A model generated the notes under the pieces. The model did not search any database and was not told the origin of the DNA. It saw only the letters and a program-made list of their open reading frames with translations. This document shows, in pieces, positions 11,892 through 50,904 of a stretch of DNA of 64,000 nt. Positions within the stretch are counted from its first letter, which is position 1. Every line of letters begins with the position of its first letter. The position numbers and the translations under genes were made by a program. This DNA is from Candidatus Hermodarchaeota archaeon (GTDB taxonomy: Archaea; Asgardarchaeota; Lokiarchaeia; Sigyniarchaeales; SOKP01): positions 1-64,000 of the forward strand of contig JBHLLP010000002.1 in assembly GCA_048885525.1 (NCBI GenBank), given 5' to 3'.

Positions 11892-13097
11892 TTAATACAA
11901 ATGTAGTTTGACATCGCATTTTCTACAATGGCCTTTCTTTAATTTCTTAAAGCATTCTTCATGGTAAAGAGCATTACATTGAAAATTACTACATTGAACT
12001 GCTGTTTGGCCTTTCTCAAAAATCAAATAACAAACTGGGCATGCGTTAAATAGAGCTTCATCTCCAAGTAAACCTACGTTTTGAATATATTTAGCTGGCA
12101 TAATTTCGGGTTTTTGAGCAGTTTTATCTTTCGTTCCCTTAGTTAGAACACGTAATTTTTGTATTTGAGTAACTTCTTTAGGTATTTTTAGGAGATAAAA
12201 ACAATGTGGACACCTAGCTGTACCGGATCTTTTTACTTGATGATCTTTTTGAGAATCTGCCCACGCAACTAAACAATGTATATGAAATGGTGTAGTACAA
12301 TTAGGGCAATATCGCCCTGTAACATAAAAAGATCCTCTCGTGTAAGGATTTTGATCAGAAAAACAAATAGAGCATTTTTTAAAATCAATTTCTCCGCGTA
12401 TTTGTTTTGCTCGTTGTTCTTGGTCTTTTGTTAAATCTTGAACTCTTAATAGTTCTGCAGCAATTTTCCTAAGAAAAACGGGATTTTCGATCAAATTTTC
12501 TTTTTTGACTCCATAAGTTTTATAATTATCATCGGCAATTTCTTTCGATGATCTTATAAGAGATTCAAGATCATTATTGTAAAAGTATCGCCCACCTGTA
12601 ATATCACTTATCCTCTTAAGAATATTTTCTTTCCTTGTATTTCCAATACCCAAAGTGTCAATTCTAATATTTAGTCCTTGAGCTAGACGTGCCATCTTTA
12701 TCGGATCAGCTACAGTTCCCATATAATTTCCATCAGACATTAATACTATCCTGGGAGTCTTAGCACCAACTTTACGTAATTCAGCTATTAAAGTTTTAAT
12801 CGATAAAGCTATGGCATCACCCATAGCAGAGTAACCTCCACATTTTAGAGTATATAACACTTCAATGAGGTTATTTTCAAAATCTGAGGTGGTAAAGTCA
12901 ATAATCTTTTCTGCCTTATTAGAATATGCTATTAAAGAAAATGCACTTAAGTTATCTAGGTTAAATCTTTCTTTGATTAATGTTTTAATAGCAGAAATAC
13001 AACATGTTAATCGATTAGGCGCAAAATCCTTTCTAAACATCGATCGTGATGTATCTATGCAAATTACAAGATCTTCGGGGATTCTATTTTCAGACAT
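11892..13097 (-). CDS. vWA domain (Ssl1/p44- or Rpn10-like) plus two RING-like zinc fingers
   Basis: MIDAS-type DTSRSM..KDFAPNRL and MSDG; CSIC..CPNC..HIHC..W..CPHC and CPVC..C...C..YHEEC..CRKC. Confidence 0.8.
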   Translation of the reverse strand: MSENRIPEDLVICIDTSRSMFRKDFAPNRLTCCISAIKTLIKERFNLDNLSAFSLIAYSNKAEKIIDFTTSDFENNLIEVLYTLKCGGYSAMGDAIALSIKTLIAELRKVGAKTPRIVLMSDGNYMGTVADPIKMARLAQGLNIRIDTLGIGNTRKENILKRISDITGGRYFYNNDLESLIRSSKEIADDNYKTYGVKKENLIENPVFLRKIAAELLRVQDLTKDQEQRAKQIRGEIDFKKCSICFSDQNPYTRGSFYVTGRYCPNCTTPFHIHCLVAWADSQKDHQVKRSGTARCPHCFYLLKIPKEVTQIQKLRVLTKGTKDKTAQKPEIMPAKYIQNVGLLGDEALFNACPVCYLIFEKGQTAVQCSNFQCNALYHEECFKKLKKGHCRKCDVKLHLY

Positions 13098-13304: not shown

Positions 13305-14513
13305 ATGTCAGAAAATAGCAGCAAGAGTGTAGCGATTAAAGATTTTTTTAAAAGCAATATTCTCATCAATGAACTTGAAGAAGTTTTGAGATTGAAACCA
13401 GAATCACTCATCGGCATTGATAAGATTAGCTCTGATCATTTAATTGATGAAGGAATAAAAACTATTGAAGATTTAGCCAATCTTTCTGTATCCAACCTCC
13501 CTGAAATAAAGGAAATCCTTCCAAATATGTTATTAAAATGGGTAAAAGTTGCTCAAGTAATAAAAAATAATATAAAAGAACAACTAAAAAGGCATAAAAA
13601 AATATTGCTTACAGGCTTAGATAATGGAGGAAAAACATCTATTTTAGCAGTTGTTCAAGATAAATTCTCAATAATTAAATCTCTCTTACCTACAAGAGGT
13701 GTGAAAAGAGAGAAGCTAGACTTTTTTGGATACCCTATAATTAGTTGGGATCTAGGTGGACAAGTACAATATCGAGAAAAACTCTATTTCAATAGGCCAG
13801 AACTATTTTTCACTGAAGCAGATATAATATTATATGTTGTTGACTCACAAGATCCAGATAGAATTCCTGAAGCGGCAAATTATTTTAGGGAAGTATTAAA
13901 AGTTTTAACAGAGTTGAAAGAAAAACCTGAAATTTTAATAGTATTAAGTAAAAGTGATGAAGATATTCGGAAAACACTCCAATGGCAACAAAACGTGACA
14001 AGTGTAAAAAATAAATTTAGTAGTATTACCGATGAATTTGAGGATTTCACTGCGGATTATTGTGATACTACAGTTTTTCGACGAGAGACGATTATGCAAA
14101 TGTTTAGTGTTGCACTCAAGAAAGTATCTGATACCTCTGAAATAATTGAACACATTCTCGAGGAGTTTACAAATCAAACAGAAGCAAAAGCATCAAGTTT
14201 AGTATCGATGGATGGATTGATTTTTGGTAGTTTTACTAGAACAGATACTGATGAAATGATAGTAAATAATACAGCATTATTATTACAAACACTTTCAAAC
14301 TTTTATAATACAATAGGTTTAATGAGAGAAAAGTCAATAAAACTAGAGTTACCACTTAATGGGTTTACAATTCGAGGGGAGAAGTTATTTGAATATTCAG
14401 AATTACAGATCCCTGTATATTTATGGATGCTTTCTCAAAATCCAGAGTTATTAGAGGGGAAACTTGAATATTTTAAAGAACAATTACTTCCGTTGATTAA
14501 TCTCTTTCTATAA
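13305..14513 (+). CDS. Arf/Rag-like small GTPase with N-terminal helix-hairpin-helix-like and C-terminal roadblock-like domains
   Basis: G1 GLDNGGKT, G2 PTRG, G3 WDLGGQ, G4 SKSD; N-terminal LIGIDKISSDHLIDEGIKTIEDL; C-terminal SLVSMDGLIFGS. Confidence 0.85.
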   Translation: MSENSSKSVAIKDFFKSNILINELEEVLRLKPESLIGIDKISSDHLIDEGIKTIEDLANLSVSNLPEIKEILPNMLLKWVKVAQVIKNNIKEQLKRHKKILLTGLDNGGKTSILAVVQDKFSIIKSLLPTRGVKREKLDFFGYPIISWDLGGQVQYREKLYFNRPELFFTEADIILYVVDSQDPDRIPEAANYFREVLKVLTELKEKPEILIVLSKSDEDIRKTLQWQQNVTSVKNKFSSITDEFEDFTADYCDTTVFRRETIMQMFSVALKKVSDTSEIIEHILEEFTNQTEAKASSLVSMDGLIFGSFTRTDTDEMIVNNTALLLQTLSNFYNTIGLMREKSIKLELPLNGFTIRGEKLFEYSELQIPVYLWMLSQNPELLEGKLEYFKEQLLPLINLFL

Positions 14514-14581
14514 ATTTTTTTTTATTCGAATAAATTGGAAATCGAAGTTTTATACTTACAAACTTCTTATTTAATTATTGT

Positions 14582-14800
14582 TTACATCTCCTCTAAATCC
14601 TTATTTGCGGCGAGTAAAAATTCATTACATTTATCTAACATCTCAATCGCTTTATCTAACTGTCCCGCAACTAATTCTAATCCTTTTTCCAAGGCGATAT
14701 CTCTCCACTTTATAAAATTCTCTTTATGTGAATCGTTATGATCTGCCCAATGTTTACATAATTTTGTTAATTTTAATATCTCTTTATCTTGTTTGTCCAA
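14582..14800 (-). CDS. Small His-rich helical protein, putative metal-binding, downstream of cdhA
   Basis: LCKHWADHNDSHKENFIKW motif; TTG start. Confidence 0.6.
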   Translation of the reverse strand: MDKQDKEILKLTKLCKHWADHNDSHKENFIKWRDIALEKGLELVAGQLDKAIEMLDKCNEFLLAANKDLEEM

Positions 14801-15004
14801 AAAATCTCACTTCCTTAATGCTAAACCAATCTAACCATGAGAATATTCATTAACACATTAATTTTTAGTTTTTGTATTTAGCAAGAGTTGAATTAAACTC
14901 TCTTATTATTGAAATATTTTTTCAAACTAAATTTTCATGAAAAATGTTATTTCATTTCATTTAAATTAAAACAAAAAAAAAGAATTAAAAGAAGAAATAT
15001 AAAA

Positions 15005-17384
15005 TTAAGTTCTGCACAATCTTTTTAAGAGTGTTGGATCTATTATTTCTTTTGGTTCCCAACCTTTCTCCTTTAGATATGCTTGTATTTCATCCTTTAT
15101 ATTAATTGGGATATCCGCTTCAAGACGAATGAATTTTTCTAAATCGTTTGGGAACTTAACACCTTTATACTTCCGTTCCAAATCGATCCAATGAGATAAT
15201 TTTATCATTCGTCCCTTGGAGTTATCTGCGGGTCTTAAAGCCATTTTAGCAACTAAACAGATAGCTTGTTCAATACTTTCTGCTGTTGTCAATAAGTGCT
15301 CTGGACCAGGACCAACTAAATGATTTGCAGTTCCATCTCTAGCATTAAATACTTTCCAAACATACTCATCATCAGACCTTCCAATATACATTCGTCGATA
15401 CTCTGCTGCATGTGGACCAACAACAGCAGGAATACCTAAGCCATTTGCCATGCTAGCTATACTTGCCGCCTTCTGGGACATAGCACCCCAGGCAACGCCC
15501 ACAGCTCCAACTCTATTTAAAATATAATCTGCAATTTCTTCAAAATTACCTCGTAATGGTCTTCGAGCGAATATATTGGCTACTTTAATTGCGGCACCTG
15601 TAATGTGTGGATTGGCTACACATGAACCAACATTAACTAAACAGCCACGATCAAAATCTCCAGGGAAACGGTCATATAGAGTTTTACCCTCTTTGTCTTT
15701 CACAAGACCTATATCCATTGCTCCACAGCCAGATACTACTACAATATAATTTCTCATTAAGAATTCTTCAGCCATCTTATATAATTCTTGGATCTCATGT
15801 GCATAATTACCACATCCTATAATTGCAACTATTCCTGGAATCTCTCCTAATACGATTGGAGCCCCTACATTTCGTATCTCGGTATCTTGAATTGGACCTC
15901 TCCCAGCTCGGCAGTTATATTTCTCTGTCTTAATGTATTCTCGACCAGCATATTGTATTAATGTTAAAGGTGAAACGTTCTTCATACAATCAGATTCACA
16001 TCTACCACAACCTAAACAATCATGGAAAATAGTTTCTAAAACTGAAAAATCTGCATCTTTTGCCAAATTTATACCTTCTACAAGTGGGAGATCATTAGGA
16101 CAGTTTCTCTGACAGTTACCACAACCATTACAATTCATAGCCATATCTTGGCATCCTTTTTCATCTGGAACTCCACTTTTTCCTCTTCGAATTGGCTTAA
16201 TCTTAATAGCTGTCTCAGCAGCAACTTCACCAGCTTTAATTGGATCTAAGATTAAAACTCCATCCATTTTTCCACTAACTAAGTCTTCAACAATTTCTAT
16301 TACTGAATCATCTGTTCTGTCAGGAAAACCACCCATTATTTTCTCATTTGTGGTAATATAAGGTGCTCCAACTGCTTTTGATTCCTCATATGTTCTTAAA
16401 TTAACACATTGTTCATCTACCATAACTACATCTGCCAAACCAGAACGAATGTAGTGTAGTTGTCTTGAATAAGATCCAATTATTTTTGCTGCAGAATAAT
16501 AACGAGTAAGATCATGAGAAGTACAACAAATCGCACCTACATCGATTTTATCTTCATAGCCTTTCTCTCTTATATAATCTACTAATTCAACTCCTGGTGC
16601 AACATTATGTCCAATCATTAAAACTGTTGCTTTATTTTCCGTATCCATGGTACCCATCCCTAATTCAACAATCGGAACATTAGGATCTCCTATGGGCATT
16701 CCATACGCACATATTTGAACCGCATCTGAAATTTCCATTCCTACGGAATCACATAGACCTGCTAAGAAACTTTTAGATTCATAATCGAGATAACTTGATT
16801 CTTGACCAGTATGACCGGCTGCTAATAATTGAGTAAGGGTATAATGAACCCATTCCATTGCAGTTTCTAAATCCTCTAAATTCTCTGGTTTCATACCAAG
16901 AACTAAACGAGTGTGTGGCATTTCTACAGCAATATTATTCCCATAATTTATTGGTACATTTCCATATTTTTCTTTTAACCAATGAAGTAAATGATCTCCA
17001 TGAGCTGAATGGCATGCAGCACCAATACAACATGCAATCTCAACAATTCTAGCTTGTTGAGTCTCCATATTGATACCGCATGCACCAGTTCTGCCTTTAG
17101 AGAGATTACATTTGCCATATGTGCAATAGCCTTCGTAAAAGTTAATTTTCACAAATTAAGCAACACATATCGCAAATAGGCATATAGAAAGGTTTGTATC
17201 TTTCCATTAATTTAAAGAACCACGATCTTAAATCTCTCAACCCCGGAGATGGGTGGGGTCCCATTGGTTCCCATTCTGTCTCATCACCAAAAGATATTTT
17301 ACCAGTAGTCAATTCAAATCCTTTAATTGTGCCGAGGGGGCCTTTATATTCATCAATCTTTACCTTTGCTCCTCTTTTTTCCAA
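15005..17384 (-). CDS. cdhA: CO dehydrogenase/acetyl-CoA synthase alpha subunit; spliced join(17384..17157,17125..15005), 782 aa
   Basis: Exon 1 (76 codons) ends RYKPFYMPICDMCCL and exon 2 starts CTYGKCNLS. C-cluster ligand motifs (GHN, ICCT, DEQC, IGCG, SGCG, GSCV) and two ferredoxin-type CxxCxxCxxxC motifs are intact. Confidence 0.92.
17126..17156 (-). other. Putative 31-nt bulge-helix-bulge (tRNA-type) intron in cdhA mRNA
   Basis: Intron AUUUGUGAAAAUUAACUUUUACGAAGGCUAU. Exon-exon helix AUAUGUGU/GCACAUAU, central helix UGCU/GGCU, bulges UAA and AUU, intron stem UUUGUGAAA/UUUUACGAA. Cutting after nt 2 of each bulge restores the frame and the Cys motif. Confidence 0.8.
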
Positions 17385-17518
17385 AGGTTTCTCACATCAA
17401 ATTTTATTTTTAATTTTATGATTTTTAGATATTTGATTATAAATAGAGTTATATTAGATTTTATTTTAATTATTATATTCCAAAACTCAAAATCTAATCT
17501 ATATTAATTGAAAAAAGT

Positions 17519-17600
17519 GTGAAATTTCACTCAATTTAATTTATTTAGATTTAGTAATTTCAACAAGGTCCCCCAATACATAGAAATTTAACAGTTAAAT
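17519..17600. promoter_or_regulatory. Palindromic candidate operator sites upstream of cdhA
   Basis: Perfect palindrome GTGAAATTTCAC (17519-17530) and ATTTAAC-A-GTTAAAT (17586-17600). Confidence 0.3.
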
Positions 17601-17701
17601 GCATGATAGAACTCTAACTGAGAAGAGTATGATAAAACTGTTAAGAAAAAATGCTGAGAGCAAAATAGAATTGATAATAGTCTAATAATAAAAAATTATC
17701 T

Positions 17702-18295
17702 TTAGAGCGTAGATAAGAATTCTGAGACGGTTTCTCCGGAATCCTCATCTATGAGACTTTCTTCTAGTTCTACTCCAATGAAATTAAACTTAAATACACA
17801 ATTCTCAGTTCCTAATAAAACACATTCAATTTCTTCACCATCAACATCAATCTGCAAGGTTTCAAACATTCCTAGAAAAATTCCTTGATAAAGTAGACAT
17901 AGATTTTTAGCCATAATGTTATCAGATTCTTCCGATGTTAAGGATTCTGAGACTTTAATTAAGATATGGTCTTTTTTAAACAATCCTATTAATTCTCCAT
18001 AGCCCATGAGTTCTAATGCTTCAAGGTTCCCTTGGACAACTTCTTTTTTTGTTGCTAAAGGTTCTATACTCCAATCCTTATTATAGAAGAATTTTTCCGT
18101 ATATGATTTCCCAAGAGTCTTTCCTACCCAAATGAGTATATCATCTGCATTTGCACCAGCGAACTCAGAAAATTCGATTAAGTCAATTGGTCTTAGCATT
18201 ATTAAACGGAGATCTTTCTTTTGGTCACCGAAGAATAATTGTCCTAATTTCTCATCGATCATAACTTGTAGTTCCTTTTTAAGTCTTTTAGACAT
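17702..18295 (-). CDS. V4R (4-vinyl reductase) domain protein
   Basis: VGKTLGKSY, LELMGYG, LCLLYQGIFLGMF...EIECVLLGTENCVFKF. Confidence 0.75.
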   Translation of the reverse strand: MSKRLKKELQVMIDEKLGQLFFGDQKKDLRLIMLRPIDLIEFSEFAGANADDILIWVGKTLGKSYTEKFFYNKDWSIEPLATKKEVVQGNLEALELMGYGELIGLFKKDHILIKVSESLTSEESDNIMAKNLCLLYQGIFLGMFETLQIDVDGEEIECVLLGTENCVFKFNFIGVELEESLIDEDSGETVSEFLSTL

Positions 18296-18458
18296 ATTTT
18301 CTCCCTAATTTATTATAAATAGAGAATTATTAAGTTTTTATTACATATAATAGAAATTTAAACTGCTAGGTATTTAAATTTAATGTTTAGTACTTCAAAA
18401 CCCTAAAAATATTAGATTTAAGAATTTTTTATTTAAAAAATACTTTTAAATTATCAAT

Positions 18459-19457
18459 TTAAGAAGAGATCAAATCTAAAATTACCGGGATTACATTATC
18501 AATATTATAATTAGTTTTTACTGAAGTAAATAAGTAAGTCCATTTTCGATTTTGGATCTTGTCGAAATTATAAAAATTTGAAATTTCTTTATGTAAATTT
18601 TGAAGTTGTATTCCTAGAGATTCTTTAGAATGTATGACTAAATCAGTTTTATTACATATTATTAGTAATGGAATTCCAATTAATGCATCATTTTTCAATA
18701 TATTCCAAAATTCGTTTTTAGATTCCTCAAATCTTCTCTGATTGGCAATATCAATCATATAAATAATAATATTAGAATCTTGGAGTCCTTTCAACCATTT
18801 TGATCTGAAAGCTTTTTGTCCCGGCATGTCCCATACAGCAAATAATCCGTTTTCTTCAGCTGGAATATATTCAATATTGAATTTTCGTGTTGGAGTAAAG
18901 TAATTATCATTGAATTGGCCTGTTTTTAATCGTCTTACTAAGCTTGATTTTCCAACCTCATCAATTCCGAATAGGAAGACTTTGAAAAAGTTTTCTCTTT
19001 GATAATAATATTCAATTTCTGGAGGCTTTTCGATTACTTCATCATAAAATCTTCGAATATCAATAAACATAGAAATTAGTAAATTTTCAATTTCAATTTC
19101 TTCATTAAGGGAATATCCATTACCATTGTTTAATATTTCATTCAATAAATCCTTGAATATTTCCTTGTAGTCATAAGGATTATCTTCGTTATCAAAAATT
19201 AAACCAATAATAATTTTCCCGTTAATGCATGAAGTATATAAATTTAAATTATTAATAAATTGAGCAATAGGTTCATCAATTTTAAAATTATTTAAGGGTG
19301 ATTGTTGAGGAATATCTTTTTTATCATGCTCTTTGATAATCTTATTCACAAGGATTTTATCTTTGATGCTAATTATATCGCTAGGGTAACTATAAATATT
19401 AAGATCTGCTAAATCTTGAAATTTCTTTCCTCTGAATAAAAAGATGTTATGTAACAA
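18459..19457 (-). CDS. Arf-like small GTPase with N-terminal longin-like domain
   Basis: G1 GIDEVGKSS, PTRK, WDMPGQ, NKTD, TSVK; N-terminal IIIGLIFDNEDNPYDY segment. Confidence 0.85.
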   Translation of the reverse strand: MLHNIFLFRGKKFQDLADLNIYSYPSDIISIKDKILVNKIIKEHDKKDIPQQSPLNNFKIDEPIAQFINNLNLYTSCINGKIIIGLIFDNEDNPYDYKEIFKDLLNEILNNGNGYSLNEEIEIENLLISMFIDIRRFYDEVIEKPPEIEYYYQRENFFKVFLFGIDEVGKSSLVRRLKTGQFNDNYFTPTRKFNIEYIPAEENGLFAVWDMPGQKAFRSKWLKGLQDSNIIIYMIDIANQRRFEESKNEFWNILKNDALIGIPLLIICNKTDLVIHSKESLGIQLQNLHKEISNFYNFDKIQNRKWTYLFTSVKTNYNIDNVIPVILDLISS

Positions 19458-50307: not shown

Positions 50308-50904
50308 ATGATGAATCAAACAAATGATGAACAAGTCTCTCTTGATGATATTGAAATACCAGATAAAATTCCAGCAAAGTTCATCAATTCTAGAGTGATA
50401 GTCTTCAACCCTTTGTATGCCTCGTATTTGTATGTAAAAAAAGGTTTTTTTGGTTCCCCATTGGGAATAAACAAGCCTAGATTAGAATATTTTTCCAAAC
50501 CAAGCGAATTATCTTTAATAGAAGCCTATTATTTATTGGAAAAGAATCAAATAACAATTTATGATGTAAAGGAGAAGAATTTTTTAAACTCTGAGAAATT
50601 TCATGAGATTGCTAAAAAAACTCATCATAAATTTGAAGAAAAGTATATTATTTACAAAGATTTAAGAGAAAGAGGATACATCCCTAGACCTGGACTTAAA
50701 TTTGGAGCCGATTTTGTTGTCTATAAAAAAGGCCCTGGGCTTGAACATTCCCTTTTTATGGTTCATGTCTTACCACATGATTCTGAGATTACTGCTATTG
50801 ATATGGTAAGAGCTGGTCGCTTGGCAACATCTGTTAGAAAAAGATTTGTAATAGCGAATCCACTTACATGTAGCTATTACTTTTTTGAATGGTTTAAACC
50901 ATAA
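50308..50904 (+). CDS. endA: tRNA-intron (splicing) endonuclease, catalytic subunit
   Basis: LSLIEAYYL, YKDLRERGY..RPGLKFGADFVVY (Tyr), GPGLEHS (His), SVRK (Lys), WFKP end. Confidence 0.95.
   Translation: MMNQTNDEQVSLDDIEIPDKIPAKFINSRVIVFNPLYASYLYVKKGFFGSPLGINKPRLEYFSKPSELSLIEAYYLLEKNQITIYDVKEKNFLNSEKFHEIAKKTHHKFEEKYIIYKDLRERGYIPRPGLKFGADFVVYKKGPGLEHSLFMVHVLPHDSEITAIDMVRAGRLATSVRKRFVIANPLTCSYYFFEWFKP

What the first reader, a model, noticed from the sequence alone, without database searches (positions are those of the whole stretch)
17110..17177. Candidate tRNA-type (bulge-helix-bulge) intron inside the mRNA of CO dehydrogenase cdhA
Seen: cdhA is split into two ORFs in the middle of its N-terminal Fe-S motif. 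The mRNA reads AUUUGC G AUAUGUGU UGCU UA^A UUUGUGAAA AUUAAC UUUUACGAA GGCU AU^U GCACAUAU G GCAAAU. This gives an 8-bp exon-exon helix (extended by 6 more bp past a G.G mismatch), a 4-nt central helix (U.U, G-C, C-G, U.G), two 3-nt bulges on opposite strands and a 9-bp intron hairpin. Established: archaeal EndA cuts after the second nucleotide of each BHB bulge, and BHB introns in mRNA are best known from crenarchaeal cbf5. Applying that rule removes exactly 17126-17156 (31 nt, containing an in-frame UAA), joins UGU UGC UUA to UGC ACA UAU, and yields CDMCCLCTYGKC in a 782-aa CdhA with all other cluster ligands intact. Inference: a Wood-Ljungdahl enzyme in a probable Asgard archaeon depends on endonuclease/ligase mRNA splicing, which could be a regulatory switch reminiscent of HAC1/XBP1 splicing.
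Basis: partly seen in the sequence, partly recalled or inferred. Interest (0 to 1): 0.97.

Follow-up and report, generated by a model that had tools for sequence, protein, structure and literature searches.

The report
tRNA-type mini-intron in Asgard cdhA
The only CO-dehydrogenase (cdhA) gene of this Loki-type Asgard archaeon is broken by a 31-base insert shaped like the introns archaea cut out of tRNAs, and comparison with about 130 related copies indicates that the messenger RNA is cut and rejoined, which the papers I could search confirm inside a coding region for only one other archaeal gene (cbf5).

Summary
Confirmed, on the minus strand. The single cdhA of this Promethearchaeota (Loki) genome carries a 31-nt insert (17126-17156) that shifts the frame and holds a stop. 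It is present base for base in two other DNA samples. Cutting by the bulge-helix-bulge (BHB) rule restores the Cys motif of intronless relatives (782 aa). Six other distinct 31-nt inserts occupy the same site in relatives, with compensatory changes in 8 of 9 intron-stem pairs. About 30 inserts lie at 8 cdhA positions, and the BHB register is the protein-optimal one in 30 of 31. The gene is under purifying selection (dN/dS about 0.02). The genome encodes an Aeropyrum-type EndA alpha with triad and specificity loop, a likely beta subunit and RtcB. At least six more genes of this genome carry such inserts. Best reading: an EndA/RtcB-spliced mRNA intron from a patchy, apparently mobile family (0.90). 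A regulatory switch is not supported, because the closest relatives lack the intron. No RNA data were available, so splicing is inferred, not shown. The scan noted this intron type before on other DNA, including other cdhA genes.

The parts
17157..17384 (-). cdhA exon 1 (76 codons, TTG start, ends with the Leu76 codon)
   Evidence: 91-97% identical to the N-terminus of intronless CdhA of congeners; ATG at the same codon in L032
17126..17156 (-). 31-nt intron, phase 0, between Leu76 and Cys77; shifts the frame and holds UAA at 17142-17144
   Evidence: absent from about 85% of homologs; removal gives the conserved peptide in this register only
15005..17125 (-). cdhA exon 2 (706 codons plus stop)
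   Evidence: TIGR00314 cdhA 945 bits, cut-off 781; Prismane/CODH and 4Fe-4S domains
17159..17162 (-). 5' (exon) strand of the 4-nt central helix
   Evidence: pairs with 17128-17131; 92.9% of cells paired over 7 same-site sequences
17156..17158 (-). first 3-nt bulge; predicted 5' cut between 17157 and 17156
   Evidence: BHB rule (PMC2738675)
17132..17155 (-). intron hairpin: 9-bp stem (17147-17155 with 17132-17140), 6-nt loop
   Evidence: 8 of 9 pairs show changes on both sides among 7 sequences; 96.8% of cells paired
17128..17131 (-). 3' (intron) strand of the central helix
17125..17127 (-). second 3-nt bulge; predicted 3' cut between 17126 and 17125
17110..17177 (-). whole structure including the exon-exon helix (8 bp) and its 6-bp extension; after splicing an 8-bp stem closes a 7-nt loop with the junction at the tRNA 37/38-like place
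   Evidence: this stem already exists in intronless relatives (rank 2 of 560 junction positions)
50308..50904 (+). EndA catalytic (alpha) subunit, the probable cutting enzyme (in trans)
   Evidence: TIGR00324 above cut-off; best solved relative is A. pernix EndA alpha, with Y139/H147/K178, R171, W195 and loop K56/R58 aligning to Y125/H133/K164, R157, W183, K44/R46

Best explanation
The insert is a real protein-spliced intron in the cdhA messenger RNA. The pre-mRNA folds into a relaxed bulge-helix-bulge motif; the cell's two-subunit tRNA-splicing endonuclease cuts after the second base of each bulge; RtcB joins the exons; the joined message encodes the 782-aa CdhA with its N-terminal Fe-S cysteine motif intact. 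Unspliced message would give a dead 80-aa peptide. It is one member of a family of 28-34-nt introns, too short to encode any protein, that come and go at many sites of cdhA and of other genes in Promethearchaeota and are tolerated because the splicing enzyme is permissive. Shown: insert, structure, covariation, cut register, selection on the host gene, presence of the enzymes. Inferred: cleavage, ligation, and how the introns move.
For: (1) Seven distinct 31-nt inserts at exactly this site; 92.5% of cells paired, 9 pairs with double changes, 0 of 500 shuffles on all five measures, slid controls far lower. (2) About 30 distinct inserts of 29-34 nt at 8 cdhA positions and in all three codon phases; the register chosen by pairing alone is among the protein-optimal ones in 30 of 31, and is the only optimal one of about 25 for this insert. 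(3) Some genes carry two inserts. (4) dN/dS 0.014-0.028 to the four closest intronless copies at dS above 1; of 24 changes unique to this copy only 2 fall in the 60% of columns that are at least 97% conserved. (5) Only cdhA found in a 99%-complete genome; matches to the CdhB, CdhC and CdhD/E families lie in long open frames. (6) EndA alpha with triad and specificity loop, a second EndA-family gene lacking the His, and full-length RtcB; many tRNA introns. (7) Genome against genome, the clean frame-breaking inserts in identical flanking peptides are 28-31 nt and BHB-shaped in both directions, while the roughly 110 other 20-70-nt gaps mostly have poor flanks and weak pairing. (8) Precedent: cbf5 (PMC2738675).
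Against: No spliced read, cleavage assay or peptide has been seen. The central helix has a U.U mismatch and RNAfold leaves it open. The seven same-site sequences are related, so the shuffle counts are not probabilities. This copy has somewhat more amino-acid changes than its intronless sisters (20 against 7, 24 against 5, but 15 against 12 with another outgroup). One relative (G022) has inserts in a copy that looks decayed or misassembled.
Confidence: 0.9

Rival explanations
1. The intron is spliced, and splicing is a regulated switch for CO dehydrogenase (HAC1/XBP1-like). This concerns function and is compatible with the best explanation.
For: The intron lies early in the gene and carries a stop, so unspliced mRNA is non-productive. 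Co-transcriptional translation could compete with folding (inference).
Against: Only 20 of 130 distinct cdhA copies in the tree carry any intron; the sister species at 96-97% identity lack it; positions and sequences vary; same-site introns fall on six separate tips. The same kind of insert is in aIF2-gamma, AMP phosphorylase and a receiver domain. HAC1/XBP1 use IRE1, not EndA (PMC13149111; established knowledge).
Confidence: 0.1
2. cdhA is a recent pseudogene and the hairpin is a chance or inert insertion.
For: Frameshift plus stop in DNA; a mild excess of amino-acid changes on this branch.
Against: Changes avoid conserved columns (2 of 24 against about 14 expected at random); no other lesion in 2.3 kb; only copy; the same site is hit in six lineages with compensated structure.
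Confidence: 0.02
3. The ribosome gets past the insert by programmed frameshifting or hopping, without splicing.
For: Removing a single base near 17142-17157 also opens the frame; a hairpin is present.
Against: A one-base shift would leave 10 extra residues inside a Cys motif whose length is fixed in intronless relatives and in the solved structure 8RIU. The family includes inserts of every length class modulo 3, with stops, some splitting codons. Take-off and landing codons do not match. Selection is on BHB geometry.
Confidence: 0.03
4. The insert is removed from RNA or DNA by something other than EndA/RtcB (unknown nuclease, or precise excision from DNA in part of the population).
For: Patchy presence with intronless close sisters shows that precise loss or gain at the DNA level happens.
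Against: The cut register matches the EndA rule in 30 of 31 inserts; exact-match contigs of this strain carry the insert, and the contigs that skip it list different neighbouring bases, as other strains would.
Confidence: 0.04
5. Assembly or sequencing artefact.
For: Metagenome-assembled genome.
Against: Identical sequence in contigs of two further samples; analogous inserts in independent GTDB and JGI assemblies.
Confidence: 0.005

Closest known systems
cbf5 pre-mRNA intron of Desulfurococcales and Sulfolobales (Watanabe 2002; Yoshinari 2006; Yokobori 2009, PMC2738675)
   Same: Short insert in a coding sequence, BHB or relaxed BHB at the borders, cuts between the second and third bulge residues, disrupts an essential motif, host has a hetero-oligomeric EndA; gain and loss among relatives.
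   Different: cbf5 is one gene with one site and has cDNA and in vitro proof. Here: another phylum (Promethearchaeota), a central-metabolism gene, at least 8 sites in one gene, up to two per copy, at least 7 genes in one genome, very patchy presence, and no RNA proof yet.
HVO_1309 5' UTR BHB intron of Haloferax volcanii (Schwarz 2020, PMC7714728)
   Same: mRNA substrate of the splicing endonuclease.
   Different: Lies in the untranslated leader; does not break a reading frame; homodimeric enzyme.
Non-canonical, repeatedly gained tRNA introns of Asgard archaea and Thermoproteales (bioRxiv 10.64898/2026.10.13.758758; PMC11291895; PMC4090602)
   Same: Same motif, same size class, same enzyme type, repeated gains on terminal branches, unknown route of arrival; intron transposition proposed for Thermoproteales.
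   Different: Those are in tRNA genes; the Asgard preprint has no occurrence of 'mRNA' or 'cbf5'.
HAC1/XBP1 unconventional splicing
   Same: Endonuclease-plus-ligase removal of a small intron that changes the reading frame; metazoans use RtcB (established knowledge).
   Different: Cut by IRE1 at two stem-loops, conserved and stress-regulated; none of that is shown here.

Membership tests
Archaeal BHB (EndA-spliced) intron | Two 3-nt bulges on opposite strands around a 4-bp central helix, flanked by intron and exon helices | tested here: met
   Relaxed form: 3 of 4 central pairs here, 4 of 4 in five of the six same-site relatives; 9-bp intron helix; 8-bp exon helix
Archaeal BHB (EndA-spliced) intron | Cuts after the second nucleotide of each bulge restore the functional sequence | tested here: met
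   Only optimal register for this insert; 30 of 31 across the family
Archaeal BHB (EndA-spliced) intron | Structure kept by selection (compensatory change) while sequence varies | tested here: met
   9 pairs with double changes, 0 of 500 shuffles; slid controls lower; sequences are related, so not a p-value
Archaeal BHB (EndA-spliced) intron | Host encodes an EndA able to cut relaxed motifs, and RtcB | tested here: met
   Alpha subunit with triad and K44/R46-type loop, second EndA-family gene, RtcB 509-aa frame; sequence only
Archaeal BHB (EndA-spliced) intron | Spliced RNA and EndA cleavage observed | not testable with these tools
   No RNA run is listed for this stretch; no assay possible
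cbf5-type mRNA intron (orthologous family) | Sits in cbf5 at the catalytic Asp codon | tested here: not met
   Host gene is cdhA; it works like the cbf5 intron but is not that intron
Group I / group II self-splicing intron or homing-endonuclease intron | Catalytic RNA core or intron-encoded protein | tested here: not met
   31 nt, one hairpin; no Rfam match at E up to 1 in 14500-18500
HAC1/XBP1-type regulated intron | Conserved position across relatives and condition-dependent cleavage by a sensor nuclease | tested here: not met
   Position not conserved; absent from closest relatives. Condition dependence could not be tested

The most novel reading that the evidence does not exclude
Loki-type Asgard archaea host a population of mobile mini-introns without any encoded protein that spread among sites in ordinary protein-coding genes and are removed by the tRNA-splicing machinery, so that mRNA splicing is routine in the archaeal relatives of eukaryotes. 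Support for movement between sites: same-site introns on six separate tips of the cdhA tree, and related intron sequences at different cdhA sites (sites 231, 133 and 219; 0-2 of 3000 hairpin-preserving shuffles, best of 461 pairs, so only suggestive).
Probability: 0.6. Interest if true: 0.92.

Novelty: new variant of a known kind. Interest (0 to 1): 0.8.

Why it matters
In the papers I could search, splicing inside an archaeal coding sequence is confirmed only for cbf5, and searches for such introns in Asgard protein genes found none. If right, a Wood-Ljungdahl enzyme and other core proteins of Asgard archaea depend on mRNA splicing, and intron gain and loss in protein genes can be followed in a prokaryote. 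That bears on how intron-containing mRNAs and endonuclease/RtcB mRNA splicing arose near the root of eukaryotes, and on how archaeal introns move, which the 2026 preprint leaves open. It also matters in practice: gene callers split or truncate these genes, so metabolic reconstructions of Loki genomes may wrongly call cdhA broken.

Tried and rejected
The look-up of sequencing runs: no RNA holder listed; this says nothing about expression. Joints that skip 31-39 bases in DNA contigs were laid at 80% likeness and come with different neighbouring bases; I read them as intronless relatives, not as splicing. A motif-only BHB scan of the genome was useless: 3002 candidates, and the tightened version lost the positive control. 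A first scan for introns shared with G006 was swamped by false hits; the filtered version left one convincing case, so my count of introns in this genome is a lower bound (only 2.8 of 3.3 Mb of G006 could be fetched). The idea that all intron sites are pre-existing anticodon-like hairpins holds for this site (rank 2 of 560) but not for the others tested (ranks 57-524). No Rfam family. Selenocysteine or other stop read-through is irrelevant: the stop is UAA and the frame also shifts, although the genome has a tRNA-Sec. Inserts in G061 (L192), the second insert of G069 (L077/L198) and G022 (L021) could not be placed cleanly and were left out of the tree; L192 and the second L077 insert were also left out of the register test. 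Tocchini-Valentini 2011 (PMC3064391) is not held. One search failed on wrong coordinates and one search stopped after printing the dN/dS rows. I did not compare the intron with this genome's tRNA introns, and did not run a formal test of monophyly.

Full report
Observation. The finding lies on the minus strand. The window has a 715-aa frame at 15005-17152 that scores 945 bits on TIGR00314 cdhA but starts at profile position 68. The missing N-terminus is in another frame just upstream. Removing 17126-17156 joins the two into one frame. The minus strand of 17100-17190 folds at -25.8 kcal/mol, z -5.4; the plus strand gives z -0.9. All helices and bulges are at the stated places. Shuffling the 31 bases in place gives an equally good motif in 0.0075% of trials. 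Contigs from two other samples of the same study match the stretch with no difference and no gap, so the insert is in the DNA.

Organism. The named relatives are mostly labelled Promethearchaeota (Lokiarchaeia) assemblies. The genome is 3.58 Mb and 99% complete. It has one cdhA, and matches to the CdhB, CdhC and CdhD/E families in long open frames on other contigs.

Relatives. Most homologs are uninterrupted and have exactly the joined peptide, with a fixed 156-nt spacing between two anchors. The solved structure 8RIU has the same cysteine spacing. The B- and D-clusters are bound by this N-terminal domain (PMC11474084); from memory of the M. barkeri structure, the intron falls between a D-cluster and a B-cluster cysteine. 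Across 210 loci (with duplicates) from GTDB genomes and metagenomes, I found about 30 distinct inserts of 29-34 nt at eight positions of cdhA (reference nt 133, 211, 212, 217, 219, 231, 346, 513; ours is 231), some genes with two. In the genus search about a dozen of the 49 genomes with a match have a short open frame at this place.

Cut rule. For each insert I chose the register with the best BHB pairing, without looking at the protein, then asked whether it gives the best match to the intronless protein. It does in 30 of 31; usually only 1-3 of about 25 registers are optimal, and for our insert only one. The exception is a copy that looks decayed or misassembled. The inserts are not independent, but the eight sites are, and they cover all three codon phases and all length classes modulo 3.

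Covariation. Seven distinct 31-nt inserts occupy our site. Over the 21 pairs 92.5% of cells pair, 9 pairs show changes on both sides (8 of the 9 intron-stem pairs), none of 500 shuffles reaches any measure, and slid structures score 0.06-0.25 against 0.48. Relatedness inflates such counts, so this is support, not a probability. The U.U of our central helix is U-A in five of the seven. After splicing, the message forms an 8-bp stem with a 7-nt loop and the junction at the place of tRNA position 37/38. That stem is already present in intronless relatives and ranks second of 560 positions; the other sites tested do not share this.

Selection. Against the four closest intronless copies identity is 94-97%, dS above 1 and dN/dS 0.014-0.028. 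This copy has more private amino-acid changes than its sisters with two outgroups but not with a third. Only 2 of its 24 private changes fall in highly conserved columns, which make up 60% of the protein, and 18 are residues seen in other homologs. A pseudogene would not look like this.

Machinery. The gene at 50308-50904 is closest to the A. pernix EndA alpha subunit among solved structures. Reading that alignment against PMC3241643, the triad, both substrate-binding residues and the specificity-loop Lys and Arg are present. A second EndA-family gene on C9 lacks the catalytic His and is the probable beta subunit. RtcB is full length. Enzymes of this type cut relaxed motifs and the cbf5 pre-mRNA. 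Activity on this RNA is inferred.

Not a single case. Aligning about 2300 open frames between this genome and 2.8 Mb of congener G006, the clean frame-breaking inserts within identical flanking peptides are 28-31 nt and BHB-shaped in both directions: five in this genome, including ours, and four in G006. Hosts here include AMP phosphorylase, a receiver domain and aIF2-gamma. Two more turned up: one after an in-frame TGA and one shared by both genomes with compensatory changes. That makes at least seven genes, a lower bound.

History. On a cdhA tree of 130 distinct copies, 20 carry introns; same-site introns fall on six separate tips, each beside intronless sisters, some at very short distance. 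Repeated gain, lateral spread by recombination, or many precise losses could each give this; I did not separate them. Related intron sequences at different sites hint at movement, as proposed for Thermoproteales tRNA introns (PMC4090602). This pattern argues for a tolerated, possibly selfish element and against a conserved regulatory switch.

Comparison with what is known. It works like the cbf5 intron and meets every sequence-level feature of an archaeal BHB intron; the RNA-level feature could not be tested, since no RNA run is listed. As of 2009 and 2020, cbf5 was the only confirmed coding-region case, others being predicted, with one 5' UTR case added in Haloferax. Work on Asgard introns concerns tRNAs. 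Four searches found no paper on such introns in Asgard protein genes; the library is incomplete. Earlier notes of this scan report the same kind of intron in many other genes and genomes, including other cdhA copies and this genome. They are unchecked leads; one mentions joined transcripts, which I could not verify and do not count.

Verdict. Observation confirmed; interpretation supported except for the regulatory switch. Spliced BHB intron in cdhA mRNA: 0.90. New variant of a known kind. Interest 0.80.

Noticed in passing
G000 C6:109044-109073 (+), C52:11536-11566 (-), C7:62562-62592 (+), C19:33097-33126 (-): Four more 30-31-nt BHB-shaped, frame-breaking inserts in conserved motifs of AMP phosphorylase, a response-regulator receiver domain, an unnamed 329-aa gene and aIF2-gamma, absent from the G006 orthologs.
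   Followed up: partly
   Followed up: partly
G000 C7:103980-104009 (-) and its G006 ortholog: 30-nt BHB insert shared by both genomes with compensatory changes in the stem.
   Followed up: partly
G006 (loci L216-L355): Four clean 28-30-nt BHB inserts absent from G000; flanking peptides suggest ribosomal protein uL11, a CinA-like protein, undecaprenyl-diphosphate synthase and an unnamed gene (names from memory of the motifs).
   Followed up: no
L191, L140, L145, L102, L172, L182: Related intron sequences at different positions of cdhA, hinting at movement between sites.
   Followed up: partly
L021/L200 (G022): cdhA copy with two BHB-like inserts plus altered residues, foreign GC-rich sequence and an N run: decayed or misassembled.
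   Followed up: no
L029/L203 and L015 (G002): Genome with two cdhA copies, one intronless and one with a 34-nt intron.
   Followed up: no
window 11892-13097 (-), 13305-14513 (+), 18459-19457 (-): Neighbours with eukaryote-like domains: a vWA/Ssl1-like protein with a weak RING match, a Gtr1/RagA-like GTPase and an Arf-like GTPase.
   Followed up: no
window 15005-17384: cdhA stands alone; cdhB and cdhC are adjacent on contig C73, and CdhD-family genes are on C20 and C21.
   Followed up: partly
G000 genome: ARAGORN lists 33 tRNA calls, many with introns at odd positions and several with doubtful anticodons, plus a tRNA-Sec on C8.
   Followed up: no
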